Assembly: GCA_963725665.1 (NCBI GenBank)
Contig: CAVRZA010000003.1
Location: forward strand, 224,001-288,000
Direction: 5' to 3'
Source: an uncultured Actinomycetes bacterium
Lineage (GTDB): Bacteria; Actinomycetota; Thermoleophilia; UBA2241
Length of the DNA stretch: 64,000 nucleotides
This document shows, piece after piece, positions 19,149-41,530 of the stretch. How positions within the stretch are numbered: position 1 is the first letter of the stretch; every line of letters begins with the position of its first letter. The notes beneath the pieces are model-generated. The model was not told the origin of the DNA. It did not search any database and saw only the letters and a program-made list of their open reading frames with translations. Both the position numbers and the translations under genes were made by a program.

Positions 19149-19329
19149 TTACGCAAGCGCGTCGCGCAGAGCACACGGTGCGGGTGGACGTTCGACGGAT
19201 CGCACCTCGACCTCGCTCGTCCGCGTTTCGTCGCCGTGGCGGTCCGCGGTCTGTGTCGAGGCGGTGCCGGTCGGGTACCTTGTGGCCCAGACGAAGCGGC
19301 GTGAGAAGCGATGAGGAGGTGAGGTCTGC

Positions 19330-19542
19330 TTGGCGTTGACCGTGTATACGAAGGTAGGCTGCACAGCGTGCGAGGCGCTAGTGAGAGACTTGAAGGCGCG
19401 AGACGTGCCGTATCGGCTGGTCGATATCGACCGCTCGCCCGGCGGCGCGCAGGAACTCTCTCACCTGACCGGAGGCAGGCCGACAGTGCCCACCGTAGTT
19501 GACGAGGACGGCGAAGTGCTGCTCGGTTTCGGCAACACCTGA
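19330..19542 (+). CDS. Glutaredoxin-like protein resembling the UXX-star (seleno)protein family
   Basis: YTKVGCTAC (CxxC), TVPTVV, ends GFGNT-TGA. Confidence 0.75.
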   Translation: MALTVYTKVGCTACEALVRDLKARDVPYRLVDIDRSPGGAQELSHLTGGRPTVPTVVDEDGEVLLGFGNT

Positions 19543-19680
19543 GGAGGAGACCGTGGCCTGCGTCGGCGGCTCTGGCTGGCCGAACGCAGGCGTCGGCGCG
19601 CGTGACGCGCTGGATCAACTCACCAAGCGGTGCGCCGCGCAGCGCCAGTGCATCGCTTCGCTGCTCAGGCGCGACCCTAG

Positions 19681-19711
19681 GGGTGGGCGGCAAGGGACGA
19701 GCCGCCCACCC
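19681..19711. terminator. Stem-loop between convergent genes
   Basis: GGGTGGGCGGC-N9-GCCGCCCACCC, 11-bp perfect stem. Confidence 0.55.
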
Positions 19712-19723
19712 TCTATGCGTCGG

Positions 19724-20507
19724 TCACGAAGGCTTGCTCGAATAGGTCGCCACGCGCCTCGCGTGTTCTTCTAGGCCGATCGGACAGGCGTCGTGACAGA
19801 TGAGGCACTCGTGGCTCCCACGCGGCGAGTAGTGTCCCGCCCACTTCTGCCAGGCCTTGTTGGGCTCGGCCAGCATCTCCTGCGGGACGATGCACTTCCA
19901 GAAGTCGACCTTCTTGCCGGGCTCCACGCCTTGCGATGGACCGGGGATGATGGCCCCCGTGGGGCAGGCCCTGACGCACAGCTCGCAGTCGCCACAGAGG
20001 TCCCTCGCGAACGGCTCGTCGTAGGGCAGAGCCGCGTCGGTGACCACGCAGCACCAGCGCACGCGCGGGCCAAGCAGTCGGGGTGACGCACAGGGTCTGC
20101 TTGCCGATCCACCCCAGACCGCCCATCGTGGCGGCGGCCTTCGCGTGCACGAAATGGGTGACGGCAGTCTTGTGCCCGGCGTCTCTCACGGCCTCTGCGA
20201 AGCGGTGAGCGCGGGCCTCGGTCAGCTCGTAGTAGAGATTGTAGTACTGCGATCCCGGCACGTCGTCGAAGGGGATGGCACCGTCGGGCAGCACGGACGT
20301 CACGACGGTGTTGAGCATCGTGTCCCAGATGTGCATGCCGAGCACGATGACGCTCTTCGCACCGTCGAGGAACCCGTTTGGCACCTCCAGGCAGCGATGC
20401 GGCGGAAACGGGACCGCAGCAAGCTTCTCGGCGTCGACGACGCCGAAGAACTCGAACCCATGGTCCGCTGCCTCGGCCCGCAATCGTTCCTTCAGGTCAG
20501 GCGACAC
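19724..20507 (-). CDS. QueG/reductive-dehalogenase-like 2x[4Fe-4S] protein (apparent frameshift near 20078)
   Basis: AKSVIVLG, KAAATMGGLGWIGK, TPxLGPRVR, CGDCELCVRACP, CLICHDACP. Confidence 0.8.
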
Positions 20508-20805
20508 GACACGACCTCACTTCCTCTACGCGCAGTGCGCTGGTCTAGAACCTGTCCACATGATGGCGGGCGCGGCGGCTTCGGTGCGGCCGCCTTCACT
20601 CCCTCGACGCGATCGTTGAGCGTCGAAACGTGCCTGCATGGCGGCATTATAGTCCGCGGTGCGCGGCCGTCTACCTCGCTCCAAGATGCGGGCCGTGGAG
20701 CGCTCCGAGTCCAGGGGCCACGCACACCGTCCTCTGGCAGGGCGCAGCCCGACTCGCTAGACTCCCGCTGCCGCGGTAGGGCCCTCTGCCACCGTGAAGG
20801 TCGCA

Positions 20806-21306
20806 ATGAGGCTCTTCGGCAAACCCGATATCGAGCAGATGAGGCGCGATGGCGACATCGCAGGCCTTGTCCACTGGGCTGACTTCCGTAGGGACCAGAG
20901 CCTGAGTCGCGCCGCGGTAGCGGCTTTGCGCGAGAACGTCTACGCGGTCGTGGAGCGTCTGTTCGACACCGCTGTCTGGGCTCACGCGCACAGGGGGCCA
21001 GGCCGCAGGGGTCTGTCACCTTCGGGGGTGCATCGGCTCAACGAGATCACGGTCGCCTTGCGCAAGATCGGTCCGCCCGCCGTCGCTCCTCTCGCCGATT
21101 CGGTCCGCCTGTACGGCGACTACGGGGACCCCGACGAGCACATGCGATTCCTCTACTTCGCCCTGGTCTTTGACGTGTTGCAGAAGATAGGACGTCCGGC
21201 GGCGAACGAGTTGCGTGACCTCGCCGAAGGCGCAGATCCCGATGTCCGCGAGCATGCGCAGGAGGCGTTGAGCAAGCTCGAAGCACGAGGTCAGCTTGAC
21301 GACTGA
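20806..21306 (+). CDS. Hypothetical HEAT-repeat-like protein
   Basis: LRKIGPPAVAPL, DPDVREHAQEALSKL. Confidence 0.6.
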   Translation: MRLFGKPDIEQMRRDGDIAGLVHWADFRRDQSLSRAAVAALRENVYAVVERLFDTAVWAHAHRGPGRRGLSPSGVHRLNEITVALRKIGPPAVAPLADSVRLYGDYGDPDEHMRFLYFALVFDVLQKIGRPAANELRDLAEGADPDVREHAQEALSKLEARGQLDD

Positions 21307-21519
21307 TGAAGAGGTCGTGGTCGCCGTTCGCGCATCCTGGCCCTCATCGCGGGAGTGGGCGACACTTGCTGCACGGCGGCGGCTGAAGGCCGGCTTGTCC
21401 CCTGCTGTGGCTGCCACGCCGAGCCCCGGCGATCCCTGATCCGGCGTGCCGTAGCCGACGGCACCCGGGCTTGGCAGTGAGGCTCCAGATTGCGCCACAG
21501 CGTCTTCCCTCGCATACCG

Positions 21520-21550
21520 TTGACCGGGGGGTATAGCATTGCAATAGAAT
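21520..21550 (+). promoter_or_regulatory. Possible promoter for mtmBC
   Basis: TTGACC-N19-TAGAAT in an AT-rich patch containing palindrome ATTGCAAT; spacer non-canonical. Confidence 0.3.
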
Positions 21551-21956
21551 TCACGTACACATTGGAGCCGTCACCGGCCGTTCGTTGGACGATGTGTCAC
21601 GGAGCGATTCGACGGGCGGCGAGGCGACTCCAACTGTTAGTTCTGCGTACGGAACCAAGGTTCGAACGCGACGGTTCCGGTCGGCATGCATTGGCGCTTG
21701 ATGGGGCGAGAACGCGATGGCTGCAAGGTCGCAGACGGATCATTCCACGTTGTCTCGAGGTCGCGTTCCCCCGCCCGGGCGGTCTCGAATCGACCGCCTT
21801 CCAGTACGACCACGGTCGTAGAACCTTTTGGCGCAAAGTGCGACAGGAGAGCGAGAGGCGTCGTTGGTCACCGCTCTCACGCCGAGGAGGTGATGTCATC
21901 CCGAGAAGGCTGACCGGCCGAAGGAAGAGCAGTGAATCCCGAAAGGAGGGAGTCAC

Positions 21957-23366
21957 GTGGCGAGAACTACCAAGGCCCTGCCCGAGCGCATGACGGTGTT
22001 TCATGCCTGGGAGCGCGCGCGGAGAGGTCCCAAGGTCGACGAGAAGACGTGGGATTTCGAGGTCATCCCCAAGACGGCGACTCGTCTGAAGGAGAAGTAC
22101 GGGATCAAGATGGACAAGAAGGTCATGATCCCGACCGATCCCGACATCATGAAGCGGCTCTACGAGGCCGGCCTCGAGATGCTCGTCGAGACCGGCGTGT
22201 ACATCATCGAGACCGGCCGTGTCGTGAAGTACACCAAGGATGAGGTGCTCTTCACCGTTGCTCAAGCGCCGAAGCACGCCATCATCGGCGAGGGGGCACT
22301 GCACTACCGGCCGCTCGTACCGAGGGCGTGGAACAGCACGACGCCGCCGATCATCCAGGGCGGCCCGACCGGCGCGCCCTGCAGCGAGCAGCACTTCCTC
22401 GGCATCCACGAGTCGTACGCCAAGGAAGGCATCGTCGACTGCATCGTCGACGGCGTGCTCGAGAAGATCAACGGCTACAACCCGGCCCCGGAGAGCCCCG
22501 CCGAGGTGTGGGCCTCCAAGCAGGAGATGTTCCTGGTCCGCCAGGCCCAGGCCAAGGCCTGTCGCTTAGGGATGGGGTTGTAGGGCGCCGAGACGCCTCT
22601 CGGGGCGGCGGCCATCGTTGCAGCCGATTTTCCCGGCGGCATGCGGGCCACTGACAACCACGAGGTGTCCCAGCTTAATGAGCTGAAGATGGAAGCCGGA
22701 GGCTGGCAATTCGTCGCTCATTACGCACTAGCTGGCGACATCATCATGGATGAGCAGATGCCCATTTTCGGCGGCTTTGCCGGTGGTCTCGAGGAGACGA
22801 CCATCGTCAACGTTGCCACCCACCTCAACGCCTTCGTCATGAACCAGGCGACCTGGCACCTCGACGGACCCGTCCACATGCGCTGGGGCAACACCACCGC
22901 CAGGGAGGTTCTGGCAGTGGCCGGCCACGGCCAGCGGGCGATCGAGGAGCATTGGCCGGATCTCATGACGGGCAACCAGTACTACCCCACCGCCGGCCCG
23001 GGCACCGTGATGTGCCTGCTAGAGACGGCGGCGCAGGCCATCACCGACACCTGCAGCGGGCGCGAAGTGGTGTCGGGCGTCGCGTCGGCCAAGGGCGTGA
23101 AGCTCGACAAGACCACCGGCCTGGAGGCGCGCTTCATGGGCGAGGTCTGCCACGCTGTGGCCGGCATGCCCCTGGACCAGATCAACGAGATCCTCGATGC
23201 TCTGGTGGCCAAGTACGAGGGTGACTACCTGACGGCGGATGAAGGCAAGACCTACGCCGAGTGCTACGACACCGACAAGGTCGTCCCCAACGATGAGTAC
23301 CTGGCAGTGTACGACGAGGCCGTTGCGATCATGAAGGATCTCGGCGTCAGCTACAAACTGTGGTAA
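21957..23366 (+). CDS. mtmB: Monomethylamine:corrinoid methyltransferase MtmB with pyrrolysine (TAG 22581-22583, codon 209)
   Basis: ORFs 21957..22583 and 22641..23366 are in frame; joined reading GMGL-O-GAET..MRATDNHEVSQLNELK matches the MtmB Pyl site; QGGPTG, LDGPVH. Confidence 0.93.
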
Positions 23367-23479: not shown

Positions 23480-24124
23480 ATGGCAAACGAGGAGTTGATC
23501 AAAGAAGCGCGTGCGGCGCTTCTTACGACCGACAAAGCCAAGGCTGAGGACGTCGCCAAACGAGCCATAGCCGCAGGCATGGATCCGGGCGATATCATGC
23601 AGAATGGCTTCGTCGCCGGCATCCGTGAGCTCGGCGAGAAGTTCGACAAGGGCGAGGTCTTCCTGCCCGAGTTGATGCTTGCGGCCGAGGCCATGGAAGC
23701 CGCCATGGAGATCTGCAACGCGGCCCTGCCCGAGGGCAAGAGCGAGACACGCGGTGTCGTCGTCATCGGCACCGTGGAGGGCGACGTGCACGACATCGGC
23801 AAGGCTGTCGTGATCGCCTATCTGCGCGCCAACGGGTACGACGTCCATGACGTCGGGAAGGACGTGCCGCCGCAGGACTTCATCGACAAGGCGGTTGAGG
23901 TCAACGCCGACGTCATCGGCGCGAGCGCTCTGCTGACGGCCACGCTGGCCGTGCAGGGCGAGATCGAGGAGTACCTCAAGGAGGCCGGCCTACGCGGCAA
24001 GTTCAAGACGATCGTGGGCGGTGCCACCTGCACGCAGGGCTGGGCCGACAAGATCGGAGCCGACGCGTACGCGAAGGATGCCAGCGACGCGCTGCAGAAG
24101 ATCGGCGAACTCGTCGGACGCTGA
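23480..24124 (+). CDS. mtmC: Cognate corrinoid protein (MtmC-like)
   Basis: EVFLPEL, GTVEGDVHDIGK (DxHxxG), SALLT, VGG. Confidence 0.88.
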   Translation: MANEELIKEARAALLTTDKAKAEDVAKRAIAAGMDPGDIMQNGFVAGIRELGEKFDKGEVFLPELMLAAEAMEAAMEICNAALPEGKSETRGVVVIGTVEGDVHDIGKAVVIAYLRANGYDVHDVGKDVPPQDFIDKAVEVNADVIGASALLTATLAVQGEIEEYLKEAGLRGKFKTIVGGATCTQGWADKIGADAYAKDASDALQKIGELVGR

Positions 24125-24200: not shown

Positions 24201-24256
24201 CCGTATGACAGTCTTCGGACGGATTGCCGGCAAGGTTCGCGCTGAGGAGGGCAGCG

Positions 24257-25483
24257 GTGGCACAGGTCAATGCAGGAGACACAGCCTTCGTCCTCATCAG
24301 CGCCGCCCTCGTGGCGCTGATGACACCGGCTATCGCCTTCTTCTACGGCGGGCTGGTGAGGCGCAAGAACTTCTTGTCGATCATGATGCAGAGCTTCATC
24401 TCGATGGGCATCGTGACGGCCATCTGGGTCGCCGTCGGCTACTCGCTGGTCTTCTCCGGCGATGTCTGGGGCATCATCGGCAACCTCGATTGGGCCGGCC
24501 TACACGGCGTCGGCCAAGCTCCGGGTCCGTGGGCGCCGACCATCCCTGCGCTGGCGCACTTCGACTTCCAGGAGATGATCGCCATCTTCACGCCGGCTCT
24601 GATCACCGGCGCCTTCGCCGATCGGGTGAACTTCAAGAGCTACCTCTGGTTTCTCGTGCTCTGGAGCCTGCTGGCCTACATCCCGCTGGCGCACTGGGTG
24701 CGTGGCGGTGGTTTCCTCGACCAGTGGGGCGCAGAGGACTTCGCTGGCGGCCTGGTGGTCCACGTGAGCGCCGGGTTCGCTGCACTGGCGTCGGTGTACG
24801 TCGTGGGCAAGCGCAGGTTCTTGCCCGGCGAGCGTACGTTGCCGCACAACATCTCTTTCGTGGCGATCGGCACGGCCCTGCTCTGGCTCGGCTGGTTCGG
24901 CTTCAACGGAGGGAGTGCACTGGCGGCCAACGGAATCGCCGCGCAGGCATTCGTGAACACCGACATCGCGGGCTCGATCGCCATGTGCACCTGGCTTGCG
25001 CTCACGTGGCTCCGCAACGGCAAGCCGAGCCTCGTCGGCGCCCTCACGGGAGCGATCAGCGGACTGGTGTGCATCACCCCTGCGGCCGGGTTCGTCCCGA
25101 CCTGGTCGGCATTCGTCTTCGGCGCAGCCGCGGGCGTCGTCTGCTACTACGCGATAGTCGTCAAGCAGAGGATGGAGTGGGACGACGCGCTCGACGTCTG
25201 GGCGGTCCACGGTGTCGGCGGGATACTGGGCACCCTGCTGCTCGGTGTCTTCGGCTTCGCTGCGGTCAATGCCGCCGGCTCCGATGGGCTGTTGGCAGGG
25301 GACGCGGCCTTCTTCGGGGTGCAGCTCGTCTCCGCTGTGATCGCCGCCGGCTACTCCTTCGCGGTGACGTACCTGATCCTCAGGCTGCTCAACCACTTCC
25401 AGCCCGTGCGCGTGCCCGACGCCGTGGAGCAGAGGGGCCTCGACGCCGAGATGCACGGCGAGGAGGCCTACCACCTGACTTGA
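24257..25483 (+). CDS. amt: Ammonium transporter (Amt family)
   Basis: FFYGGLVR, DFAGGLVVH, WFGFNGGS, DDALDVWAVHG. Confidence 0.93.
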   Translation: MAQVNAGDTAFVLISAALVALMTPAIAFFYGGLVRRKNFLSIMMQSFISMGIVTAIWVAVGYSLVFSGDVWGIIGNLDWAGLHGVGQAPGPWAPTIPALAHFDFQEMIAIFTPALITGAFADRVNFKSYLWFLVLWSLLAYIPLAHWVRGGGFLDQWGAEDFAGGLVVHVSAGFAALASVYVVGKRRFLPGERTLPHNISFVAIGTALLWLGWFGFNGGSALAANGIAAQAFVNTDIAGSIAMCTWLALTWLRNGKPSLVGALTGAISGLVCITPAAGFVPTWSAFVFGAAAGVVCYYAIVVKQRMEWDDALDVWAVHGVGGILGTLLLGVFGFAAVNAAGSDGLLAGDAAFFGVQLVSAVIAAGYSFAVTYLILRLLNHFQPVRVPDAVEQRGLDAEMHGEEAYHLT

Positions 25484-25543: not shown

Positions 25544-26338
25544 GTGGAGAGCGAGCTTCCTACCCTGGGAGTCGAGCTTGTCGGCGATGGACTCGGCCCG
25601 TTCGACGACATCGAGTTCATTGGCAGCGGCAGGTTTGCGGAGACGTACCGCGTTGTGCGTGACGACGACGAGTACGTGCTCAAGGTCTGCCACTTCATCC
25701 CGCGCATACCGCAGGAGCTCTGGGAACATGAGCTCGAGGCGCTGCGGCGCGTGAGACACCCGAACGTCATGGCATTCCGCGCCGCAGGGCACCTGCGAGC
25801 CCAGGGCAAGACGTACCCCTTCATGGAGTGCGAGTACATCGACGGCCGCGACGTGAGAGGGATGATCGCCGCCGGGCTGCGACCGGAGGATCCGTCGGCA
25901 CTGCGGGAGTTCTTCGCAGGCCTCCTGCGCGGCGTGGCGGAGCTCCACGACCTGGGCATCCTGCATCGCGACATCAGGCCGGCCAACGTGGCCCTGCGGG
26001 GCGGCCACTGGCAGAAACCCGTGCTGCTCGACTTCGGCCTGGCTCAGACCTACGTCGTCTCGGCGGCGCAGCAGCGCCTCTCGCTGGGCGAGCGGCGGCG
26101 GGATCTTGTTGCCCTCGCCGAGGTCGTGTACGAGGTCGGGGCGGGACGACCTCCCGTCCACGAACCACGGGCCGCCCGGACCCTCGCCACGCGGGTGCGG
26201 CGGCGTGCTCTGGTCGACCCACGCAGGCTCTCGCCGCTGTTCGCGGACGACGTCGCCGAGGTCGTCGTCCGTCTGTTGTCTCGCGGGCAGTCGCGCTCGG
26301 GGGCCGATGAGGCGTTGCGAGAGCTGGAGGAGTCCTAG
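25544..26338 (+). CDS. Hanks-type Ser/Thr kinase-like protein
   Basis: GSGRFAETY, VLK, HPNV, HRDIRPANV, DFG; no APE motif. Confidence 0.8.
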   Translation: MESELPTLGVELVGDGLGPFDDIEFIGSGRFAETYRVVRDDDEYVLKVCHFIPRIPQELWEHELEALRRVRHPNVMAFRAAGHLRAQGKTYPFMECEYIDGRDVRGMIAAGLRPEDPSALREFFAGLLRGVAELHDLGILHRDIRPANVALRGGHWQKPVLLDFGLAQTYVVSAAQQRLSLGERRRDLVALAEVVYEVGAGRPPVHEPRAARTLATRVRRRALVDPRRLSPLFADDVAEVVVRLLSRGQSRSGADEALRELEES

Positions 26339-31170: not shown

Positions 31171-33023
31171 GTGAATGCAGAGGTGTCACCTCCGCACGAC
31201 GCAGGGGACACCTCCGGTAACCCAGATCCCAGGCGGATCGCCCCATTCCTGTCTCACCACCCGCTTCTCGAGGGCCTTAGCCGTGACGATCGCGAGAGAA
31301 TGGCCGAGATGGTCGTCGTGCGTTGCGTGCCGGCGGGCGAGTCGGTCCTCGTCGAGGGCGGGCCGCCAGGTACGTATCTCTTCGTCGTCGTGGAAGGGTC
31401 GATGGAAGTCCTGGCCGGGGGCCTTGTCGTCGACGTGCTGACGAGTGGGGAGGTGTTCGGCGCCCCGACCCTGGTCACGGGTCTTGCCCCAGGGTTCTCG
31501 GTTCGCGCGCGCGAAGGCTCGACGTTGTATCTCGTCCCTCGAGAGGCGGCGATCGAGCTGCTCCTTCGCCCTGAGGGGGTCGCATTCGTGGTGGCGTCCT
31601 TGCGAGACCGGCTCGTTCACACCTCGCGGACGTTCAGATCGGTCGCCGACCCGCGGAGCGTTCCCGTTTCTTCTCTCATCCGTCGCGCGCCTGTCATCTG
31701 CCAGGCCGACACGCCCATTCGCGACGTGGCCATGATCATGAGCCAGGAGGTCGTAGCCGCTGTCCTCGTGGAGACCCGCCAGGGTCTCGGCATCGTCACC
31801 GACGCCGATCTGCGCGACAGAGTACTGGCCGCTGGATTGTCGGCGCATGCTCCGGTCGGCTCGATCACGACCACTCCGGTCCGCACCATCAGCGCCGAGC
31901 GCCTGGCGCCCGAGGCGAGCATCGAGATGATGCAAGCCGGCATCAACCATCTGGTCGTCATCGATGCCGCTGGTGGCGTGCTCGGCATCGTTTCGGCCGG
32001 CAGCCTGATGGCCCCCGATGCGCTGAGCCCCTTCGCTCTGCGCTGGTCGATCCTGGCTGCACGCAGCGTAGACGAGGTCGTCGAGGCGGCCATCCGTCTG
32101 CCAGAGGTGTTCGTCTCACTCACCGACCAGCACCTAGACGCCCCGACGATCTTGCGCGTGGTCACGCTGGTGGTCGACACGCTTACGCGCCGCTTGCTCG
32201 AACTCGCCGTCCGGCAGCTGGGACGGCCGTCTGTTCCCTACGCTTGGCTTGCTCTCGGCAGCGCCGCGCGCAGCGAGCTCACCCTCGTCTCCGACCAGGA
32301 CAACGCGCTGGCCTATGCCGACTCGGACGACCCCTCGGTCGACGCGTACTTCGAGCGACTGGGAGAGGCGGTTAACGATGGCGTGGCACGCTGCGGCTTT
32401 GCGGCCGATCAGTCGGGAGTGCTGGCTCGAGATCCGCACTGGCGCATGTCCCGGTCCGACTGGGTGCATGTCTTCCAGGAGTGCTACGACGTGTGGGACT
32501 GGGAGCACGCAGCGCGGGCCTGCGTGGCCTTCGACTTCCGCTGTATCGACGGCGATCTGGACATCGTGACCCCTCTGACCGAGGTCGTGCTGAGGGCTCC
32601 CGACCATCCCGCGCTGTTGAACCGGCTCGCCCGTTCGGTGGTCGATACACGTTCGCCCCTCGGCTTCCGCCAGCACTTGCCCGATCGGGTTGACATCAAG
32701 AGGAGCGCTCTGCTGCCAATCGAGAACATCGCGCGCTACTTCGCGCTTGCGAATCGGATCACCGTGCCGGCGACGTTGGATCGTCTCACCGCCGTGGAGG
32801 AGCTGGCCATTCTCGAGACCGAGATAGTGATCGCCCTGCAGGAGGCCTACCGCGCCATGGCTCACCTCCGGCTGCGCCACCATGCAGACGCCATCGAGAG
32901 GGGCGACGCGTTGACGACACCATTGACACGACTACGCTACAGCCGTTGGCACGCGTGGAAGTGCACGAGGCACTGCGGCTGATTGCGGCCGCCCAGAAAC
33001 GGGTGCCACTCTACGTGACGTGA
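31171..33023 (+). CDS. cNMP-binding + CBS pair + DUF294 nucleotidyltransferase-like protein, copy 1 (apparent frameshift near 32900)
   Basis: GEVFG, GIVTDADLR, ALGSAARSELTLVSDQDNAL, FDFR, DIK. Confidence 0.85.
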
Positions 33024-33167
33024 GGTCGAACGGCCCTCGCTGGCGGTCGGTGATGCATCCCTTGTCGCAAGTCCGGGCTCGAGGATGCCCGCGATGTGGC
33101 GAGGGGTCGACGCCAGGGTAGACTCAAGATCGCGGCGGCTCCGCGCGAGCGCCCTCCAGTAGCGGGA

Positions 33168-35058
33168 GTGAGTCATGGCCACAGAACGGCCAGCCGAACA
33201 GCGCGACGAGCGCATCGCCTTCTGCTCGACGACGTGCGGCGGATAGCGATCTTCCTGTCGCGAGTGCCTCCGTTCAACGGACTCAACCGGCGCGAGCGCG
33301 AGCGGATAGCCGCCTCGGTCGAGAAGTGGGAGCTGGCGCCGGGAAGCGTCCTCCTCGTCGAAGGCGGCCCGCCGGGCACCCGTCTGTTCGTCGTCTTCGA
33401 CGGTGTCCTCGAGCTGACGACCAGGGGACAGGTGATCGACGTCGTCACGAGTGGCGGTCAGTGGTGGGTCACCCGAGCTCTCGTCACCGGTCTCGCGCCC
33501 GAGTTGACGGTGCGGGCTCGCGACCAGGTCGTTCTTTACGCGATCCCTCGGACGATCGCCATCGACGTGCTCAGCCGCCCGCAGGGGGTCGCCTTCGTGA
33601 CCGGCACTCTGCGCGAGCGGCTCGTGCGCACGGCGCAAATGATCGAATCGGCTTCTGACCAGACGAGCGGCCCGTGTCGTCGCTCATCCGCCGCCCCCCG
33701 TGATCTGCAGCCCCGATACCCCGGTGCGCGAGGCGGCGCGAGATGATGAGCGCCCAAGTCGCAAGCGCCATTCTCGTCGAGACACGCGAGGGTCTCGGCA
33801 TCGTCTCCAACGCCGACTTGCGCGACAAGGTCGTCGCCCTCGGCGTCTCTCCCGACACTCCCGTCAGCTCGATCATGACGACGCCTGTGGTGACCGTACG
33901 CGGCGACCAGCTCGCGACGGAGGCCGGCATCGAGATGATGCGCGCGGGGATCAACCACCTGGTGGTCGTCGACGCGCGCGAACGTGTGCTCGGAGTCATA
34001 TCGGCTGCGAGCCTGATGAGTACGGATGCGCCAGCCCGCTGGTCTTGCGCTCGGCTATTACCGCGGCTCACGATGTGGAGGAGGTCGTTGAGGCGGCGAA
34101 GCTCATGCCACAGGTCTTCGTCTCACTCGTCGATGCGCGTCTCGATGCACCGAGCCGTCTCGCGCATCATCACTCTGCAGAGCGACTCGCTAACGCAACG
34201 TCTTGCTGGAACTCGCCATCGAACGTCACGGTCCGCCGCCTACGCCTTTCGCCTGGCTTGCCCTCGGCAGCGGAGGACGCGGTGAGCTGACGCTGGCCTC
34301 GGACCAGGACAACGCTTTGGCGTACGCGGACTCCGACGACCCGGAGGTCGACTCCTACTTCGAGGGTCTGGCCGCCGACGTCAACGGAGGCTTGGCTCGC
34401 TGCGGGTTCGAGCTCGACGTCTCCGGAGTGCTGGCGAGCGACCACCACTGGCGCATGTCGCGATCGGACTGGGTCAGGGTCTTCAGGGAGTGCTTTGAGG
34501 TCTGGGATCTCGAGCACACGCTGCGAGCCAGCGTTGCCTTTCGATTTTCGCCAGGTCGCCGGTGATCTCGACGTCGTCACTCCGCTCGTGGAGGTGCTTC
34601 TCGATGCGCCAGACCATCCTTCGCTCCTCAACAGGGTCGCGCGGACAGTGACCGACATCCGCTCGCCGCTCGGCTTTCGGCAGCGTCTGACGGGACCAGT
34701 CGATATCAAGAAGAGCGCGCTTCTGCCCATCGAGAACATGGCTCGCTACTTTGCGCTCGCCAACAGGGTGACCGTCTCTGCCACTCTCGACCGTCTCTCC
34801 GCCGTGCAGGAGCTGGGCGGTTTCGGGGCGACGACGGCTGCCGAGCTGCCCGAGGCATACCGGGCGGTGTGGAACCTGCGGCTGCGCCATCACGCCAATG
34901 CCGTTCGCGCCGGTCGTCGCATCGACGACGCCATCGACTCGACCCAGCTTCGCCCACTGACGTACGCGGAGCTGCAGGAGGCCCTGCGGGTCATCGCGTC
35001 GGCTCAGAAGCACGTGCCCGAGATCGTAATGCCGAGAGACATGGAGCGGATGGCGTAG
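33168..35058 (+). pseudogene. cNMP + CBS + DUF294 protein, copy 2, broken by several frameshifts (pseudogene or sequencing errors)
   Basis: Fragments at 33096, 33700, 33743, 34203 and 34495 align in order with copy 1. Confidence 0.6.
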
Positions 35059-35126: not shown

Positions 35127-35378
35127 GGCTGCACTGAGTCGCGGACTCCGGTTTCCCGATCCGGGCTGGCGCCGGTCGGTGTCCACCTTGCAGGGTGGGA
35201 CGACGCTTAGCACGGCGGCGGGAGGCTCGTTAGGTGAAGGTGCCATCGACACGCCGGCAGAACGGCTCGACGCACTCGAGCTGACCGCGGGCACGGCCTC
35301 GGTCGGCCGCCGCCCCACCCACCTCCTTAGCGAACCAGTCACCCCGGGCTCTACTTACGCAACGGAGGTGTGACCTAA
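35127..35378 (+). promoter_or_regulatory. Structured mtbB leader with anti-SD and anti-anti-SD
   Basis: CACCTCC 35320-35326 is complementary to SD GGAGGTG 35364-35370; 35224-35242 can pair alternatively with 35320-35336; CATAAT at 35121. Confidence 0.5.
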
Positions 35379-36779
35379 GTGAGCAAGATACTGACCCGCA
35401 TGGGGGACGGCAGCTTCGTCGAGCTGACGCCCGACGAACTTCGTGCAGACATCGTCGCGGCTACCGAAGATGCGGCCGACAAGGGCAAGATCCCTCCCTT
35501 GCAGGACGACGAGATCGACAAGCTCGTCGAGATATTCTCCGCGCCGTGGCGCGTGATCGGGGTCGAGCCTGGTCACGAGGTTCCCCTCACCAAGGATGAG
35601 ACGGCGTGCACCCTTGTTTCATCGCAGCTGTCGAGTGGCGCTCACCTGCCGATCAGCCGTGAGGCGGCGGTCGAGATCTTCGAGCGCGTGTTCGCCTTCG
35701 ACACCATGGAGCTGGGCTGGATCGACTACTCCTTCAAACCGGCGAAGGCGATGGTCTCGCTCGACCAAGTGTCGATCGAGCGCCTGCTCGCTACGACGGT
35801 CTTCCCGGTTCTCTACGGCGCGATGCCCAACATGGGCCTCTACTACACGCCGGACGGGCCTTTTACGAACCCCGCCGATCTGCTCGGCATGATGAAGATC
35901 GCCGAGGCGCGCGAAGAAGAGATGAAGGCCGCCGAGATGTGCATGGAAGACATGATCTACATGTGCAAGCGCTTCGATGAGATCGGCGCCGACGGCATCG
36001 ACTTCGATACGACCGCATCGGCCGGCGACGCCGACTTCTGGGCGACGCTGAAGACCGTCGAAGAGCTCAAGAAGACGACCAAGCTGGGCATCGAGGTCGG
36101 CATGTCCGGCGAGTTCATCCTCGGCATGCACGGCGAGGTCGAGTACAACGGCAAGAAGCTCGCCGGCATGTTCCCGCACCAGCAGCTCAAGGTCGTGGAG
36201 GAGGCCGGCGCCGACATCTTCGGCCCGGTCGTCAACACCAAGACCAACAAGTCGGCGCCGTGGAACGTCGCTCGCGCCGTGACCTTCGTGAAGGAAGTCT
36301 GCAAGCAGGCCAAGATCCCGATCCACGCCAACGTGGGTATGGGCGTGGGCGGCACACCCATGTTCGAGACACCGCCGGTCGACGCCCTTAGTCGAGCCAG
36401 CGTGGCGATGGTCGAGATCGCCAAGGTCGACGGGTTGTAGGTTGGCGTGGGCGATCCCTTCGGGATGTCCGTAACTCACGCGATTGCCTCCGGCATGGGT
36501 GGCATTCGTACCGCTGGAGATCTGGTGGCGCGGATGCAGCTCAACTACCGGATGAGGCTCCCCGAGGCGAAGAAGTACGTCGCCGACAAGCTTCACGTGA
36601 GCACCTTCGACCTGTCGGATTCGACCGTCATGCGCAACCTGCGCGAGGAGCTCGATATCGGCTGCGTCGAAGCCATCCCCGGCCTCGCCAAGGGGCTGGC
36701 GGCGAAGGCTCGCATCGCCGATCTTCTCGATATCAAGATCGAGTGCGTCGAGAAGCTCAAAGCGAAGATGCCGGCCTGA
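35379..36779 (+). CDS. mtbB: Dimethylamine:corrinoid methyltransferase MtbB with pyrrolysine (TAG 36438-36440, codon 354)
   Basis: ORFs 35379..36440 and 36447..36779 are in frame; [27 protein letters not shown] matches the MtbB Pyl site; [17 protein letters not shown]. Confidence 0.93.
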
Positions 36780-36834: not shown

Positions 36835-37479
36835 ATGGCAAACGAAGAGTTCTTCGCCGAGGCAAACGCGGCGATCAAGGCGTGCGACAAGGAGAAAGCC
36901 ATCGCTGCCGCCAAGCGCGGGCTGGCGGCGGGCATCCCGCCCGACGAGATGCTGAAGAAGGGCTTCGTCGTCGGCATCTCTGAGATGGGCGACCTTTTCG
37001 AGCGCGGCGAGGTTTTCCTTCCGGAGCTCGTCCTTGCGGCCGACGCCATGATGGGCGCCGCCGAGGTGTGCAACGCGGCGCTGCCCGAGGGCAAAGGCGA
37101 GAAGAAGGGCACCGTAGTCATCGGGACCGTTCAGGGAGACGTGCACGACATCGGCAAGACGATCGTCGTCGCGTTCCTGCGCGCGAACGGTTACGACGTT
37201 CACGACCTCGGCCGCGACGTCGCGGGCGCCAAGTTCATCGACAAGGCCGCCGAGGTCAACGCGGACGTCGTCGGCATGAGCGCTCTCCTGACGACCACCA
37301 TGCGCGAGCAGATCAGGGTGCTCGATGCAATGAAGACGGCCGGCGTGCGCGACAAGTACAAGGTCATCGTCGGCGGCGGCGCATCGACCCAGAAATGGGC
37401 CGACAAGATCGGCGCCGATGCTTACGCGGAGGACGCCAACGACGGCGTGAAGAAGATCAACGAGCTCACCGGCAACTGA
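36835..37479 (+). CDS. mtbC: Cognate corrinoid protein (MtbC-like)
   Basis: GTVQGDVHDIGK, SALLTTTM; follows mtbB. Confidence 0.88.
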   Translation: MANEEFFAEANAAIKACDKEKAIAAAKRGLAAGIPPDEMLKKGFVVGISEMGDLFERGEVFLPELVLAADAMMGAAEVCNAALPEGKGEKKGTVVIGTVQGDVHDIGKTIVVAFLRANGYDVHDLGRDVAGAKFIDKAAEVNADVVGMSALLTTTMREQIRVLDAMKTAGVRDKYKVIVGGGASTQKWADKIGADAYAEDANDGVKKINELTGN

Positions 37480-37662: not shown

Positions 37663-37851
37663 TCCGCAAAGGAGAGCGCTCCAGGGGGTCGAAGGACATC
37701 GGCTGAGTGGCGATCGAGCGATCGACCGAGCGAGGGCTCGAGTGTCGAGGAAGGGAGATCATCCAGGACGAGTAGCGTGAGCTAGGCCGCTGACACACGG
37801 CCGTTACCAGCTGTTGGTGTAGTTGTGACATTCGACCAGGGGGAACAGCCA

Positions 37852-39501
37852 ATGGCAGAAGACCAAAGCTCCGAACGGTGGCAAACGTCGGATGTGACCG
37901 ACAAGTACCTCTCCGAATACTCGGACGAGTACAAGCAATCGCGTTTCAAGACCAACATGCGCCGCGACATCAGCTGGGTCGGCGCCTTCTTCGTCGCCGC
38001 CGGCGTGCCGGCGCTCATCTTGTTCTCGATGGGCGGCATCTCGGCCGGCACCGGGCCGGTGGCCGTGCTCGTGTGGACGCTCTCTGTGCTGGTCGGCTTC
38101 GTCGACGCCTTCATCTTCGCCGAGATCGCGGGGCTGCACCCGAAGAAGTCGGGCGGTACCGCCGTGCACGGCGCCACCGCCTGGATCCGCTACATCAGGC
38201 CGGCGGCTCCGATCTCGCTGTGGTGCAACTGGCTCGCCTGGACGCCGGTGCTGGCACTCGGCTCCGGTCTCTGTGCGGGGTACCTGCTGTCGGTCTTCTT
38301 CGCTCCAGACGCCACGATCAACACGTGGACGATCGACCTCGTCAATCTCAATTTTCTCAAGAGTGGGCTGGAGCTGCGCATCAACGCCGTGTTCATCCTC
38401 GGCGCGCTCATCATGCTCGCGGTCTGGAACATCCAGCACTACGGCATCCTGCGCACTGCGCGCGTGCAATTGGTGCTCACGATCGGGGCGATGACGCCGC
38501 TGCTGGTGCTGACCCTGGTCCCGCTGTTCACCGGCGATGTGGTGATGAGCAACTTCTCGCCCTTCGTGCCCGTCAACGGCTCGTGGAACATCGACGGCTG
38601 GACGGCGTTCCTGGGCTCCTTCTTCATCGCCGCCTGGTCGGCCTACGCCTTCGAGACGGCCATCTGCTACATGAGCGAGTTCAAGAACCCCGGGCGCGAC
38701 CAGGCCAAGGCCATCCTCTGGTCGGGTGTGTTCTGCATCTTCTGCTACACCTTGATCCCGTTCGTCTGGCAGGGCGTCCTGGGCACCGACTACATGCTCA
38801 AGCCCGAGATCTACTCGGGAGCCGGCGTTCCCGCGGGCTTCGCGGCCATGTTCAACTTCGGCGCTTGGTTCACGAAGTTCTGCGCCATTGCCATGTTCTT
38901 CACCGTGATGCTCTCGGTGATGACGGCCATGTCCGGCTCGTCCCGCACGCTGTTCCAGGGCGGCCAAGACGGCTGGCTGCCAAAGTACCTCTCGCACCTC
39001 AATGAGCACAAGGTGCCGACCTGGGCCATGTGGACCGACCTCGTCTTCAACCTCTTCCTGCTGCTGATGTCGGACTACGTCTTCGTGCTCGCCGTCTCCA
39101 ACTGCAACTACATGATCTTCAACTTCCTCAACCTCAACGCCGGCTGGATCCACCGCAAGGACAACTCCAGGGTTCCGCGGCCCTTCAAAGCTCCGATGCC
39201 GCTGTTCGTGCTGGGAACGAGCTTCGCCTACCTGAACATCTTTCTGTTCGGGGCCGGCGCGAACTTCTGGGGCGCGGGCACGTTCTGGATGGGATGGATC
39301 TCGGCCCTGATCGCACTGCCGGTCTTCTACTACCGGCACTACGTCACAGACAAGGGCAAGTTCCCGGTGCACATGTTCGACGACCTCATCCCTGAGGGAG
39401 AAACGGCGCTCGGACCGACCACGTGCGGTGTGCTGCCCTACGTCGCCATAGCCGGCGGCCTGGCGTGCATGACCATCGGCTACGTGATCTTCTGGGTCTG
39501 A
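37852..39501 (+). CDS. APC-family permease, MtbP-like (putative dimethylamine uptake)
   Basis: AGVPALIL, FAEIAGLHPKKSGG, WSAYAFE, RPFKAP; 12+ TMs; follows mtbBC. Confidence 0.85.
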   Translation: MAEDQSSERWQTSDVTDKYLSEYSDEYKQSRFKTNMRRDISWVGAFFVAAGVPALILFSMGGISAGTGPVAVLVWTLSVLVGFVDAFIFAEIAGLHPKKSGGTAVHGATAWIRYIRPAAPISLWCNWLAWTPVLALGSGLCAGYLLSVFFAPDATINTWTIDLVNLNFLKSGLELRINAVFILGALIMLAVWNIQHYGILRTARVQLVLTIGAMTPLLVLTLVPLFTGDVVMSNFSPFVPVNGSWNIDGWTAFLGSFFIAAWSAYAFETAICYMSEFKNPGRDQAKAILWSGVFCIFCYTLIPFVWQGVLGTDYMLKPEIYSGAGVPAGFAAMFNFGAWFTKFCAIAMFFTVMLSVMTAMSGSSRTLFQGGQDGWLPKYLSHLNEHKVPTWAMWTDLVFNLFLLLMSDYVFVLAVSNCNYMIFNFLNLNAGWIHRKDNSRVPRPFKAPMPLFVLGTSFAYLNIFLFGAGANFWGAGTFWMGWISALIALPVFYYRHYVTDKGKFPVHMFDDLIPEGETALGPTTCGVLPYVAIAGGLACMTIGYVIFWV

Positions 39502-40224: not shown

Positions 40225-41028
40225 CTACTCCAAGAGCCCGGCGCGATGAGCCTTGAGGTAGTTGCCGCAGTAGGGGTCCTCGCCGCGCAGCGCCTCGGCG
40301 GCCTTGATGGTGGCCAGCATCTCCTTGTTGCGCACGTCGAGCACGGCGCCGTCGATGCCCAGGCCCATGCACATGGCGACGAAGGTGCGGTTGAGCAGGG
40401 GGCGGTTGGGCAGGCCGAAGCTGACGTTGGAGAGGCCGCCGATGGTGCGCACGGGGAGGCGCTCCTTGACCATCCTTAGGGTCTCCATGGTGATCACGCC
40501 GGCGCTGGAGTCGGCCGAGACGGTGAGCACCAAGGGATCGACCCAGAGCTCGGCGGCGGGCAGGCCGGCGGCGGTCACCAGCTCGTGCATCTTGGCCGCC
40601 ACGGCGAAGCGCTCGGCGGCCGTCGCGGGCACGCCCTCGTCGGAGAGGCAGAGGCCCACCACGGAGCAGCCGTGGGCCTTTATCATGGGCAGGGCGGCGT
40701 CGATGCGCTTCTGCTCGCCGCTGATGGAGTTGATGAAGGGCACCTGGCCACCGCCGGCGAGGGCCGCCTCGACGCCGGCCCGTAAGGCCTCGGGGCTGGC
40801 CGAGTCGACCATGAGGCGCCGCTGCGAGACGCTGCGCACCGTCTCGATGAGCCAGCGCATGTCGGCCACCTCGTCGCCGCCGGCCACGCCGGCGTTGACG
40901 TCGAGGACCGCGGCGCCCGCCTCGTCCTGCTCTCGCGCGAGGCCCTTGATGAACTCGGCGTCGCGCGCCGAGATGGCCTCGCCCACCTGCTTACGTGTAC
41001 CGTTGATCGATTCACCCACGAGCAGCAT
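40225..41028 (-). CDS. Methyl-corrinoid:tetrahydrofolate methyltransferase (AcsE/pterin-binding family)
   Basis: [35 protein letters not shown]; RBS GGAGG. Confidence 0.88.
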
Positions 41029-41122
41029 CTTCCAGGACCTCCACGTACGAAGCCGGTGTGTGAGAGCTGATTCTAACCCTCGCGGCGACCGAGACAACCG
41101 GTTGGCCGCCTCAGTGGGCCTT

Positions 41123-41151
41123 TTGCGCCCGTTGGGCAAGTCTGCTACAGT
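41123..41151 (+). promoter_or_regulatory. Sigma70-like promoter of rplS
   Basis: TTGCGC-N17-TACAGT with extended TG. Confidence 0.55.
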
Positions 41152-41185: not shown

Positions 41186-41530
41186 GTGACCGTCATCGAC
41201 AACATCGAGCGTCAGCAGCTGCGCGACGACATTCCGCAGTTCAAGGCCGGGGACACGGTCAAGATCCACTTCCGCGTTGTCGAGGGCAGCCGGCAGCGCA
41301 CGCAGATCTTCCAGGGCATCGTGATCAAGCGCCAGGGCGCCGGCGTGCGCGAGACGTTTACCGTGCGCAAGCAGTCGTTCGGCGTCGGCGTCGAGCGCAC
41401 CTTCCCGCTGCATTCACCCAAGATCGAGAAGATCGAGGTCGTCATGATCGGCGACGTGCGACGGGCGAAGCTCTACTACCTGCGCCAGAAGGTCGGCAAG
41501 CAGGCGAGGGTCCGCGAGAAGCAGCGCTAG
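41186..41530 (+). CDS. rplS: 50S ribosomal protein L19
   Basis: [34 protein letters not shown]. Confidence 0.97.

What the first reader, a model, noticed from the sequence alone, without database searches (positions are those of the whole stretch)
35379..36779. mtbB is one 466-aa gene with amber at the Pyl site
Seen: a single TAG at codon 354, reading VDGL*VGVGDP, with the frame continuing to 36779. Known: Methanosarcina MtbB has Pyl356 in the context VDGI-O-IGVGDP. A second independent amber at the homologous site strongly supports real recoding.
Basis: partly seen in the sequence, partly recalled or inferred. Interest (0 to 1): 0.82.

Follow-up and report, generated by a model that had tools for sequence, protein, structure and literature searches.

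The report
Pyrrolysine-coding dimethylamine methyltransferase gene, Thermoleophilia
This is one intact gene for a dimethylamine-type methyltransferase whose internal "stop" codon almost certainly codes for the rare 22nd amino acid pyrrolysine, in an uncultured soil or peat actinobacterium; it is a sound new example of something already reported.

Summary
Window 35379-36779 (+) is one 466-codon frame with a single TAG at codon 354, reading VDGL*VGVGDP.

- **Family:** it matches MtbB end to end, across the TAG (PF09505 664 bits; TIGR02368 561 bits against a cut-off of 369).
- **Position:** all 79 intact homologous loci have TAG in the same column. These include Methanosarcina and Methanolobus, where it is codon 356.
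- **Selection:** the 112 codons after the TAG are as constrained as those before it (dN/dS 0.10-0.20 against 0.08-0.13).
- **Machinery:** the genome is a 3.7-Mb, 68% GC bin whose nearest relatives are labelled Thermoleophilia. It encodes tRNA-Pyl(CUA), pylSc, pylSn and pylBCD. It also has eight mtbB, one mtmB and six mttB-family genes, each with one TAG.
- **TAG is still a stop:** it ends about 39% of confident ORFs and RF1 is present.
- **RNA element:** a 7-bp hairpin 73 nt after the TAG shows compensatory changes.

Actinobacteriota genome bins expressing Pyl-type mtbB are already in print (PMC10805028). This scan has also reported the same thing repeatedly on other DNA. Verdict: real, and a new member of a known kind.

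The parts
35379..36779 (+). mtbB: dimethylamine-type corrinoid methyltransferase, 466 codons, GTG start, TGA stop, one in-frame TAG
   Evidence: PF09505 664.3 bits, profile 4-462 of 463; TIGR02368 560.7 bits, cut-off 369.1. AlphaFold2 model: pLDDT 92, TIM barrel over residues 64-399.
35364..35368 (+). Shine-Dalgarno-like GGAGG, 10 nt before the GTG start
   Evidence: Read directly from the sequence.
36438..36440 (+). TAG, codon 354: predicted pyrrolysine codon
   Evidence: Same alignment column is TAG in 79 of 79 intact homologous loci, and in the seven other mtbB copies of this genome. Codon 356 in Methanosarcina and Methanolobus. In the model, residue 354 lies in barrel strand 352-355.
36438..36537 (+). 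Match to Rfam RF02509 PYLIS_2 ('pyrrolysine insertion sequence mtbB'), starting at the TAG
   Evidence: 89.3 bits against a gathering score of 36. All 8 paralogues match too. For the whole model, covariation is weak (79.4% of cells paired against 77.5% in shuffles). The fold z-score is -1.46. Much of the score is therefore coding conservation.
36511..36528 (+). 7-bp hairpin with a 4-nt loop, 73 nt after the TAG (CCGCUGG AGAU CUGGUGG)
   Evidence: 97.1% of 581 cells are paired against 90.1% in shuffles (0 of 500 reach it). Slid controls give 20-57%. Two pairs at synonymous third codon positions each have 16 cells changed on both sides.
36835..37479 (+). Cognate corrinoid protein (mtbC-like), ATG start preceded by GGAGG
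   Evidence: TIGR02370 223.3 bits (cut-off 215.3). The MtbC equivalog NF041607 scores 222, below its cut-off of 350. B12-binding domains found.
37825..39501 (+). APC-family permease matching the 'trimethylamine N-oxide permease' model
   Evidence: NF053774 747.8 bits, cut-off 690.
40225..41139 (-). Pterin-binding methyltransferase: candidate methyl-corrinoid:tetrahydrofolate methyltransferase
   Evidence: NF005719 294.2 bits, cut-off 259. PF00809.
21957..23366 (+). mtmB with one in-frame TAG (22581-22583), the 'first' amber of the window
   Evidence: PF05369 633 bits across the TAG. The TAG aligns with residue 202 of PDB 1tv2/1l2q MtmB.
23480..24124 (+). Corrinoid protein next to mtmB
   Evidence: TIGR02370 228.9 bits, cut-off 215.3.
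24224..25483 (+). Ammonium transporter (Amt) after mtmB and its corrinoid protein
   Evidence: PF00909 372 bits. TIGR00836 418 bits, cut-off 343.

Best explanation
Window 35379-36779 is a single, intact mtbB gene. Its UAG at codon 354 is decoded as pyrrolysine by the genome's own tRNA-Pyl(CUA). That tRNA is charged by a split PylRS (pylSc plus pylSn) with pyrrolysine made by PylB, PylC and PylD.

The product is a TIM-barrel enzyme. It is inferred to move a methyl group from dimethylamine (or a closely similar methylated amine) onto the Co(I) corrinoid of the protein encoded next door. The nearby pterin-binding methyltransferase would then pass the methyl group to tetrahydrofolate. RamA-type activases encoded elsewhere in the genome would repair oxidised corrinoid.

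The organism is a non-methanogenic bacterium whose nearest relatives are labelled Thermoleophilia, so this is methylamine demethylation for carbon and energy, not methanogenesis.

TAG remains an ordinary stop for about four genes in ten, and RF1 is present. Decoding at codon 354 is therefore a competition that Pyl-tRNA must win often enough. A conserved hairpin 73 nt downstream may help.

- **Shown:** gene integrity, the site of the TAG, selection on both sides of it, the presence of the machinery, and the hairpin covariation.
- **Inferred:** pyrrolysine insertion itself, the substrate, the methyl route, and any role of the hairpin.
For: - **Family match:** a full-length MtbB match spans the TAG.
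- **Conserved TAG column:** TAG is in the same column in 79 of 79 intact loci. These are the best 80 kept of 521 confirmed relatives, and one frameshifted locus (L081) was dropped. The flanks are invariant: D-3, G-2, G+2, G+4 and D+5 in 80 of 80 rows, window included.
- **Paralogues:** all 8 mtbB copies of the genome carry TAG in the context DG[L/Y]-TAG-VG.
- **Selection:** against four orthologues of 87-91% identity, dN/dS is 0.10-0.20 downstream and 0.08-0.13 upstream of the TAG.
- **tRNA:** tRNA-Pyl(CUA) lies at C6:343702-343774. ARAGORN draws it with a 6-bp anticodon stem, a short variable loop and a small D-loop.
- **pyl genes:** pylB 448 bits (cut-off 348), pylC 339 (248), pylD 212 (150), pylSc 315 (178) and pylSn 120 (51).
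- **Co-occurrence:** among 201 genomes of the class, 39 have mtbB and 38 have pylSc. 38 of the 39 mtbB genomes have pylSc, and none of the 162 without mtbB has it. Related genomes are not independent.
- **Neighbourhood:** a corrinoid protein, a permease and a pterin-binding methyltransferase lie beside the gene. Two RamA-type genes are in the genome.
- **Independent assemblies:** contigs of four public runs, including an RNA-Seq library, bridge the TAG. No listed change falls on it.
- **Literature:** Actinobacteriota genome bins are reported to express Pyl-encoding mttB and mtbB (PMC10805028, passages).
Against: - No peptide or mass evidence was available here, so insertion of pyrrolysine is not shown.
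- TAG ends 648 of 1644 (39%) confident long ORFs, with no nearby back-up stops (median 50 codons to the next stop against 48 after TGA), and RF1 is present. Termination at codon 354 must therefore compete.
- Three of the eight mtbB copies also end in TAG.
- The pyl genes are not in the usual single cluster and are not near mtbB. pylB-C-D-T lies 47 kb from pylSc and pylSn, on another contig than the window.
- The 5' helix of PYLIS_2 lacks covariation, and the 100-nt fold is not unusual (z -1.46, 18 of 200 shuffles fold as well).
- The neighbouring corrinoid protein fails the MtbC equivalog cut-off (222 against 350).
- The gene sits in a 5-row subclade on a long stem (0.31) in a FastTree tree, and its neighbouring permease matches a TMAO permease model. 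The substrate may therefore not be dimethylamine.
- The RNA-library contigs are 90-99% identical relatives, and they prove neither transcription nor translation.
Confidence: 0.9

Rival explanations
1. The TAG terminates translation. The locus would then give a truncated 353-aa protein, with or without a separately started 110-aa C-terminal piece (GTG at 36447). That would make it a split gene or a pseudogene.
For: Standard ORF calling gives exactly these two pieces. TAG is a frequent true stop in this genome and RF1 is present. In 72 of 73 other same-frame TAG junctions screened, the TAG was simply the end of one gene before the next.
Against: One domain match runs through the TAG. The TAG column is fixed in 79 of 79 intact loci across several bacterial phyla and in Methanosarcinaceae. 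The downstream part is under the same purifying selection, in the same frame. The modelled barrel strand 352-355 contains the site. The complete pyl set is present and co-occurs with mtbB.
Confidence: 0.04
2. The TAG is read through, but a standard amino acid is inserted (near-cognate or other suppressor decoding) rather than pyrrolysine.
For: No direct chemical evidence for Pyl was available here.
Against: ARAGORN found one CUA-anticodon tRNA among the 52 tRNA genes and labelled it tRNA-Pyl. The dedicated synthetase and biosynthesis genes all exceed their curated cut-offs. No homologous locus examined has a sense codon in this column (0 of 79). That would be expected if an ordinary residue sufficed.
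Confidence: 0.03
3. The gene is a Pyl enzyme, but it does not act on dimethylamine. It would be one of eight diverged paralogues specialised for another methylated amine.
For: The genome has eight copies falling in at least two clades. The window's copy is in a small subclade on a long stem. The adjacent permease matches a trimethylamine N-oxide permease model above its cut-off. Identity to Methanosarcinaceae MtbB is only 51-57%.
Against: It exceeds the TIGR02368 equivalog cut-off by a wide margin (561 against 369). The residues around the Pyl site are the family's invariant ones.
Confidence: 0.2
4. The TAG is a sequencing or assembly error in a long-read genome bin.
For: The eighth mtbB copy and a DUF294 gene in the window are frame-broken.
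Against: Indel errors do not create a substitution-type TAG at the one conserved column. Four orthologues and seven paralogues carry it. Contigs from four independent public runs bridge it without a listed change.
Confidence: 0.01

Closest known systems
MtbB1-3 of Methanosarcina (dimethylamine:corrinoid methyltransferase; TIGR02368 / PF09505), with MtbC
   Same: Same family over the full length. TAG is at the same column, codon 356 in Methanosarcina and Methanolobus loci. Same flanking motif, VDG[IL]-Pyl-[IV]GVGDP. A corrinoid protein gene follows directly.
   Different: 51-57% identity. The host is a high-GC bacterium, not a methanogen. The methyl acceptor downstream is probably tetrahydrofolate (pterin-binding methyltransferase) rather than coenzyme M. 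TAG is a common stop here (39%), whereas it is rare in Methanosarcina (recalled).
Pyl-encoding mtbB and mttB of Actinobacteriota genome bins from Stordalen Mire (Ellenbogen et al. 2023, mSystems, PMC10805028; passages read)
   Same: Same phylum, same gene families with a truncating amber, same peat and soil setting. One related locus found here is a fen-derived Actinomycetota genome bin (L052).
   Different: In the passages I saw, the paper identifies Pyl genes by truncation only. It does not describe pyl machinery, copy number, TAG usage or the downstream hairpin. I did not read its supplements.
Pyl-mtbB of other bacteria (Thermincola and other Bacillota, Desulfobacterales; Olavius delta-1 symbiont, PMC1976440, seen as a search listing and abstract only)
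   Same: A bacterial, non-methanogenic setting and the same TAG column.
   Different: 52-60% identity. Four of this genome's copies, the window's included, sit in a separate Actinomycetota-dominated clade of 47 rows (SH-like support 100). Three others fall among sequences from Desulfobacterota, Chloroflexota and Bacillota.
Rfam RF02509 PYLIS_2
   Same: Matches from the TAG over 100 nt at 89 bits. The 3' hairpin is supported by compensatory changes.
   Different: The model's 5' helix is not supported in this set of 83 distinct sequences. One extra base pair (columns 78-87) belongs to the 3' hairpin. No function has been shown.
MtmB (PDB 1nth, 1l2q, 1tv2) and MttB: the other Pyl methylamine methyltransferases
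   Same: Same chemistry class, a TIM barrel and a single UAG-encoded Pyl. Both kinds are present in this genome with TAG.
   Different: No detectable sequence similarity to MtbB: a sequence search of the PDB with MtbB gave 0 hits. The best structural neighbours of the model are MtaA-like, MetH and UroD barrels (Z 16-18), only a little above generic TIM barrels (Z 13-14).

Membership tests
MtbB, Pyl-type dimethylamine methyltransferase (TIGR02368 / PF09505) | Full-length match above the curated cut-off | tested here: met
   TIGR02368 560.7 bits against 369.1. PF09505 664.3 bits, profile 4-462 of 463.
MtbB, Pyl-type dimethylamine methyltransferase (TIGR02368 / PF09505) | Single in-frame UAG at the family's pyrrolysine column | tested here: met
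   Same column in 79 of 79 intact loci. Codon 356 in Methanosarcina and Methanolobus.
MtbB, Pyl-type dimethylamine methyltransferase (TIGR02368 / PF09505) | Cognate corrinoid protein (MtbC) encoded alongside | tested here: inconclusive
   The adjacent gene passes TIGR02370 (223.3 against 215.3) but not the MtbC equivalog NF041607 (222 against 350).
MtbB, Pyl-type dimethylamine methyltransferase (TIGR02368 / PF09505) | Genome encodes tRNA-Pyl, PylRS and PylBCD | tested here: met
   Every protein gene is above its NCBIfam cut-off.
MtbB, Pyl-type dimethylamine methyltransferase (TIGR02368 / PF09505) | Pyrrolysine actually present at the site in the protein | not testable with these tools
   Needs mass spectrometry.
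MtbB, Pyl-type dimethylamine methyltransferase (TIGR02368 / PF09505) | Dimethylamine-specific methylation of the corrinoid protein | not testable with these tools
   Needs an enzyme assay. Paralogue divergence and the TMAO-permease-like neighbour leave the substrate open.
Rfam RF02509 PYLIS_2 | Score at or above the gathering threshold, starting at the UAG | tested here: met
   89.3 bits against 36, window 36438-36537.
Rfam RF02509 PYLIS_2 | Consensus secondary structure kept by covariation | tested here: inconclusive
   Whole structure: 79.4% of cells paired against 77.5% in shuffles. The 5' helix is 72.8% paired, with many unpaired cells. The 3' hairpin is supported: 97.1% against 90.1%, with two pairs showing 16 double changes each.
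Bacterial split PylRS system (pylSc plus pylSn) | Separate catalytic and N-terminal subunit genes, both above cut-off | tested here: met
   pylSc 314.6 bits against 178.15. pylSn 119.9 bits against 51.15.
Bacterial split PylRS system (pylSc plus pylSn) | Single pylT-Sc-B-C-D-Sn cluster (the usual bacterial layout, recalled) | tested here: not met
   pylB-C-D-T lies at C6:343702-347001 (-). pylSc is at 296347-297081 (+) and pylSn at 298938-299198 (-), 47 kb away.

The most novel reading that the evidence does not exclude
A whole family of uncultured, non-methanogenic bacteria (class labelled Thermoleophilia) is built around pyrrolysine. Its members carry seven or more diverged MtbB paralogues per genome, which would act on different methylated amines. 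They decode UAG as Pyl at about 15 defined sites while still using UAG to end about 40% of their genes. This would be achieved either by switching the pyl system on only when methylamines are present, or by a local mRNA signal (the conserved hairpin 73 nt after the UAG) that favours Pyl-tRNA over RF1. The second route would be the first working Pyl insertion element in bacteria.
Probability: 0.2. Interest if true: 0.6.

Novelty: new member of a known kind. Interest (0 to 1): 0.3.

Why it matters
- **Annotation:** standard annotation splits this gene in two (353 and 110 aa). Reading it correctly restores a complete methylamine-demethylating pathway in an abundant but uncultured soil and peat lineage: mtmB and mtbB with corrinoid proteins, transporters and a tetrahydrofolate methyltransferase.
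- **Ecology:** such bacteria compete with methylotrophic methanogens for methylamines. That bears on methane budgets in wetlands, the theme of PMC10805028.
- **Genetic code:** the genome is an extreme case of a shared codon, with about 15 Pyl sites while 39% of genes stop at TAG and RF1 is present. This makes the family a good place to ask how bacteria keep UAG ambiguous without harm.
- **This gene:** as a single gene it adds nothing new in kind.

Tried and rejected
1. **Genome-wide search for further Pyl proteins.**
   - A codon-usage screen for TAGs with coding signal on both sides gave 381 candidates and missed the window's own mtbB.
   - A stricter set of 81 held only 8 of the 15 known Pyl sites.
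   - For the 73 remaining candidates, Pfam found a domain spanning the TAG in just one, an integrase. The other 72 are neighbouring genes in the same frame, or have no hit.
   - With a sensitivity of about one half, this does not show that Pyl is confined to methyltransferases.
2. **PYLIS_2 as a whole structure.** It is not supported. The 5' helix has many unpaired cells, and the fold energy is ordinary (z -1.46).
3. **A solved MtbB structure.** A sequence search of the PDB gave 0 hits at E up to 0.01. Foldseek gave only generic TIM barrels (TM 0.30-0.35). VIA-align's top rows (MtaA-like 4ay7 at Z 18.1, MetH barrels at 17.8) stand only modestly above unrelated barrels. MtmB and MttB were not among the 50 rows listed, which excludes nothing.
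4. **The cluster as an insertion between trmD and rplS.** In one relative (G134) the same gene order exists, but trmD and rplS were not found within the 35 kb fetched. One comparison cannot date or direct any transfer.
5. **Literature.** 'pyrrolysine' + 'Thermoleophilia' gave 1 unrelated paper. 'Thermoleophilia' + 'dimethylamine' + 'corrinoid' gave 0. 'RBG-16-64-13' + 'methyltransferase' gave 4 papers, 2 listed. I did not establish that this genome belongs to that genus.
6. **Stop codons of the pyl genes.** pylSc, pylSn, pylD and prfA end in TAG. With 39% TAG genome-wide this is not remarkable.
7. **Depth.** It cannot rank expression, because all four runs are held as contigs.
Full report
**The observation.** Window 35379-36779 (+) translates as one frame of 466 codons closed by TGA. 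Its single internal stop is at residue 354 (TAG, 36438-36440), in the context [14 protein letters not shown]. Standard ORF listing splits it into 35379-36440 (353 aa) and 36447-36779 (110 aa) in the same frame. The GTG start follows an in-frame TAA, and a GGAGG lies 10 nt upstream. Homologues align from residue 1.

**Family.** With TAG read through, the protein matches Pfam PF09505 (Dimeth_Pyl) at 664.3 bits, over residues 5-462 and profile positions 4-462 of 463. One domain therefore runs across the TAG. It also matches NCBIfam TIGR02368 at 560.7 bits against a cut-off of 369.1.

**Is the TAG at the pyrrolysine site?** I scanned one genome per prokaryotic species with an alignment of this genome's MtbB copies.
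- The scan gave 618 pattern matches and 521 confirmed relatives. The best 80 loci were kept.
- Translating the matched frames, 79 of 80 loci have exactly one TAG at residue 343-355 of the match. L036 has a further TAG at its end. The 80th locus (L081) is frameshifted and was dropped.
- In a MAFFT alignment, the TAG of the window and of all 79 intact loci falls in one column. It is flanked by invariant D-3, G-2, G+2, G+4 and D+5 (80 of 80 rows).
- The set includes Methanosarcina sp. T3, which reads VDGI-TAG-IGVGDP. It also includes Methanolobus, Methanohalophilus, Methanosalsum and Methanomethylovorans.

**The second amber.** The window's mtmB (21957-23366) has its TAG at 22581-22583 and matches PF05369 at 633 bits. 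The TAG aligns with residue 202 of the solved M. barkeri MtmB chains 1tv2 and 1l2q. That residue 202 is the Pyl position is recalled.

**Is the part after the TAG translated?** I compared the gene with four orthologues of 87-91% protein identity (L077, L082, L083, L088, all labelled Thermoleophilia).
- Nei-Gojobori dN/dS is 0.08-0.13 for the 353 codons before the TAG and 0.10-0.20 for the codons after it. dS is 0.34-0.79. All four orthologues keep the TAG.
- Contigs of four public runs from four studies, one of them an RNA-Seq library, bridge the site at 90-99% identity.
- The differences listed next to the site (36443 T>G, 36446 C>T) are synonymous third positions, and none is listed on 36438-36440.
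- These runs are held as contigs, and 163 difference rows were not shown. This is therefore support against an assembly error, not proof of expression.

**The organism and its machinery.** The window lies on contig C3 of a 3.73-Mb, 12-contig genome with 68% GC, 97.5% complete and 5% contaminated.
- The nearest relatives of its genes are labelled Thermoleophilia or Actinomycetota.
- The flanking genes are bacterial housekeeping genes: ffh, rimM, trmD, rplS, lepB, rnhB, dprA, xerC, whiG, rpsB and tsf.
- ARAGORN finds 52 tRNA genes. One is tRNA-Pyl(CUA) at C6:343702-343774, drawn with a 6-bp anticodon stem, a short variable loop and a small D-loop.
- Directly upstream of it lie pylD (211.6 bits, cut-off 150), pylC (338.7, cut-off 248) and pylB (448.3, cut-off 348).
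- pylSc (314.6 bits, cut-off 178) and pylSn (119.9 bits, cut-off 51) lie 47 kb away on the same contig.
- The system is therefore complete, but split over two loci and not next to its client genes.

**Client genes.**
- The genome has eight mtbB copies, each with one TAG in the context DG[L/Y]-TAG-VG. One copy also carries a frameshift.
- It has one Pyl-type mtmB, plus pyrrolysine-free relatives.
- It has 31 MttB-family matches, of which 6 have one TAG.

**Distribution in the class.** I sampled 201 genomes of the class.
- 39 have mtbB. These are 33 of 35 other genomes in the window's own family and 5 of 35 in a second family. No match was found in the other families sampled. All listed matches have one TAG, and the per-genome count was often capped at seven.
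- 38 genomes have pylSc.
- The two sets coincide except for one genome, G110 (93% complete), which has mtbB but no pylSc match.
- Related genomes are not independent, so this is a consistent pattern, not a statistical test.

**TAG is still a stop.** Among 1644 long ORFs with strong third-position GC signal, 648 (39%) end in TAG, 907 in TGA and 89 in TAA. Back-up stops are no closer after TAG (median 50 codons) than after TGA (48). RF1 (prfA) is present at 489.9 bits against a cut-off of 423. Many essential genes end in TAG directly before the next gene, for example rplR, rpoA, infC, rpmH and rnpA. Three of the eight mtbB copies also end in TAG. UAG therefore has two meanings in this cell, as already known for Pyl-using bacteria (recalled: Prat et al. 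2012, not read here).

**An RNA element.**
- Rfam RF02509 (PYLIS_2) matches 36438-36537 at 89.3 bits against a gathering score of 36. It matches all eight paralogues, and PYLIS_3 matches the mttB copies tested.
- On 83 distinct sequences the model's full structure is barely better than shuffles (79.4% against 77.5% of cells paired). Its 5' helix has many unpaired cells. The window's 100 nt do not fold unusually well (z -1.46).
- The 3' hairpin is different. As a 7-bp stem (alignment columns 74-80 with 85-91, window 36511-36528) it is 97.1% paired against 90.1% in shuffles (0 of 500 reach it). Slid controls give 20-57%.
- Two of its pairs lie at synonymous third codon positions, and each shows 16 cells changed on both sides: CG/UG/UA/AU/GC and CG/UG/GC/UA/AU.
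- Earlier notes of this scan on other genomes say the same. Whether the hairpin promotes Pyl insertion is unknown.

**How it most likely works.**
- An AlphaFold2 model built on 58 sequences is confident (pLDDT 92, pTM 0.92). It shows a TIM barrel over residues 64-399, with residue 354 in strand 352-355.
- No MtbB structure is found in the PDB by sequence. The best structural neighbours are corrinoid-linked or related methyltransferase barrels: MtaA-like 4ay7 at Z 18.1, MetH at 17.8 and UroD at 16.4. These stand only a little above generic barrels.
- Downstream lie a corrinoid protein (36835-37479; TIGR02370 223 bits against 215) and a permease passing the 'TMAO permease' model (748 bits against 690). 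On the other strand is a pterin-binding methyltransferase passing the methyl-THF:corrinoid model (294 bits against 259).
- Upstream are mtmB, its corrinoid protein and an ammonium transporter. Two RamA-type activase genes are elsewhere in the genome.
- The inferred route is: amine, then methyl-Co(III) corrinoid protein, then methyl-tetrahydrofolate. The substrate is inferred from family membership only.
- In a FastTree tree of 86 rows, the window's copy is in a 5-row subclade on a long stem, at the base of an Actinomycetota-dominated clade of 47 rows. Three other copies of the genome fall among sequences from Desulfobacterota, Chloroflexota and Bacillota.

**Novelty.**
- Ellenbogen et al. [quoted passage not shown]
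- My other searches found nothing specific to Thermoleophilia.
- This scan has reported Pyl-type mtbB in Thermoleophilia-like genomes many times on other DNA.
- The finding is therefore real and cleanly supported, but it is a new member of a known kind.

**Points of some wider interest.** These are the family-wide multi-copy state of the gene, the heavy use of TAG as a stop alongside about 15 Pyl sites, and the conserved downstream hairpin.

Noticed in passing
G000:C1:513249-514238 (-), outside the window: A tyrosine integrase gene has one in-frame TAG (C1:513710) inside its catalytic domain (DLEKARL*VRRAL). The downstream HDLRHTHAT and LGH...Y motifs are intact. It is either a fresh pseudogene or a Pyl read-through candidate. 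It was the only one of 73 screened same-frame TAG junctions where a Pfam domain spans the TAG.
   Followed up: partly
window 33096-35058 (+): A second cNMP-binding/CBS/DUF294 nucleotidyltransferase gene, directly upstream of mtbB, is broken over four frames (33096-33746, 33743-34285, 34203-34565, 34495-35058). An intact 603-aa copy lies at 31171-32982.
   Followed up: no
window 19150-21950: About 2.8 kb between trmD and mtmB has no ORF with the genome's third-position GC signal and no Pfam hit. No Rfam family reaches its threshold there.
   Followed up: partly
window 18465-41530: The 22-kb methylamine cluster sits between trmD (18465-19148) and rplS (about 41188-41530), which are usually neighbours (recalled). 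Its GC is 64-67% against 68-77% in the flanks. In relative G134 the cluster's gene order is kept, but trmD and rplS were not found within the 35 kb fetched.
   Followed up: partly
G000:C6:296347-299198 and C6:343702-347001; C6:195353-196408: pylSc, pylSn, pylD and the RF1 gene prfA all end in TAG. The next in-frame stops are 39, 67, 33 and 52 codons further on. With 39% TAG genome-wide this may be chance.
   Followed up: partly
G000:C2:503975-505331 (+): The eighth mtbB copy, in tandem with the copy at C2:502569-503924, has its last 60 profile positions in another frame. This is a frameshift, or a single-base assembly error.
   Followed up: no
L003:15454-17481 and L004:14412-16688 (G000 contig C6): Two aldehyde:ferredoxin oxidoreductase paralogues, one near each pyl locus, share a C-terminal stretch ...LGVDVRL-K-ARLAREREN when TAG is read through. 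I did not check whether the K is the TAG, so this may be a duplicated 3' end or nothing at all.
   Followed up: no
window 25544-26338 (+): A short Ser/Thr protein-kinase-domain ORF (264 aa) lies between the ammonium transporter and the second permease of the cluster. It has no counterpart in the G134 cluster.
   Followed up: no
L039, L048 (JBLMXT01, labelled Deltaproteobacteria MAG248): Two mtbB loci labelled Deltaproteobacteria sit inside tight Thermoleophilia subclades of the tree. This suggests contigs placed in the wrong genome bin, or mislabelled.
   Followed up: no
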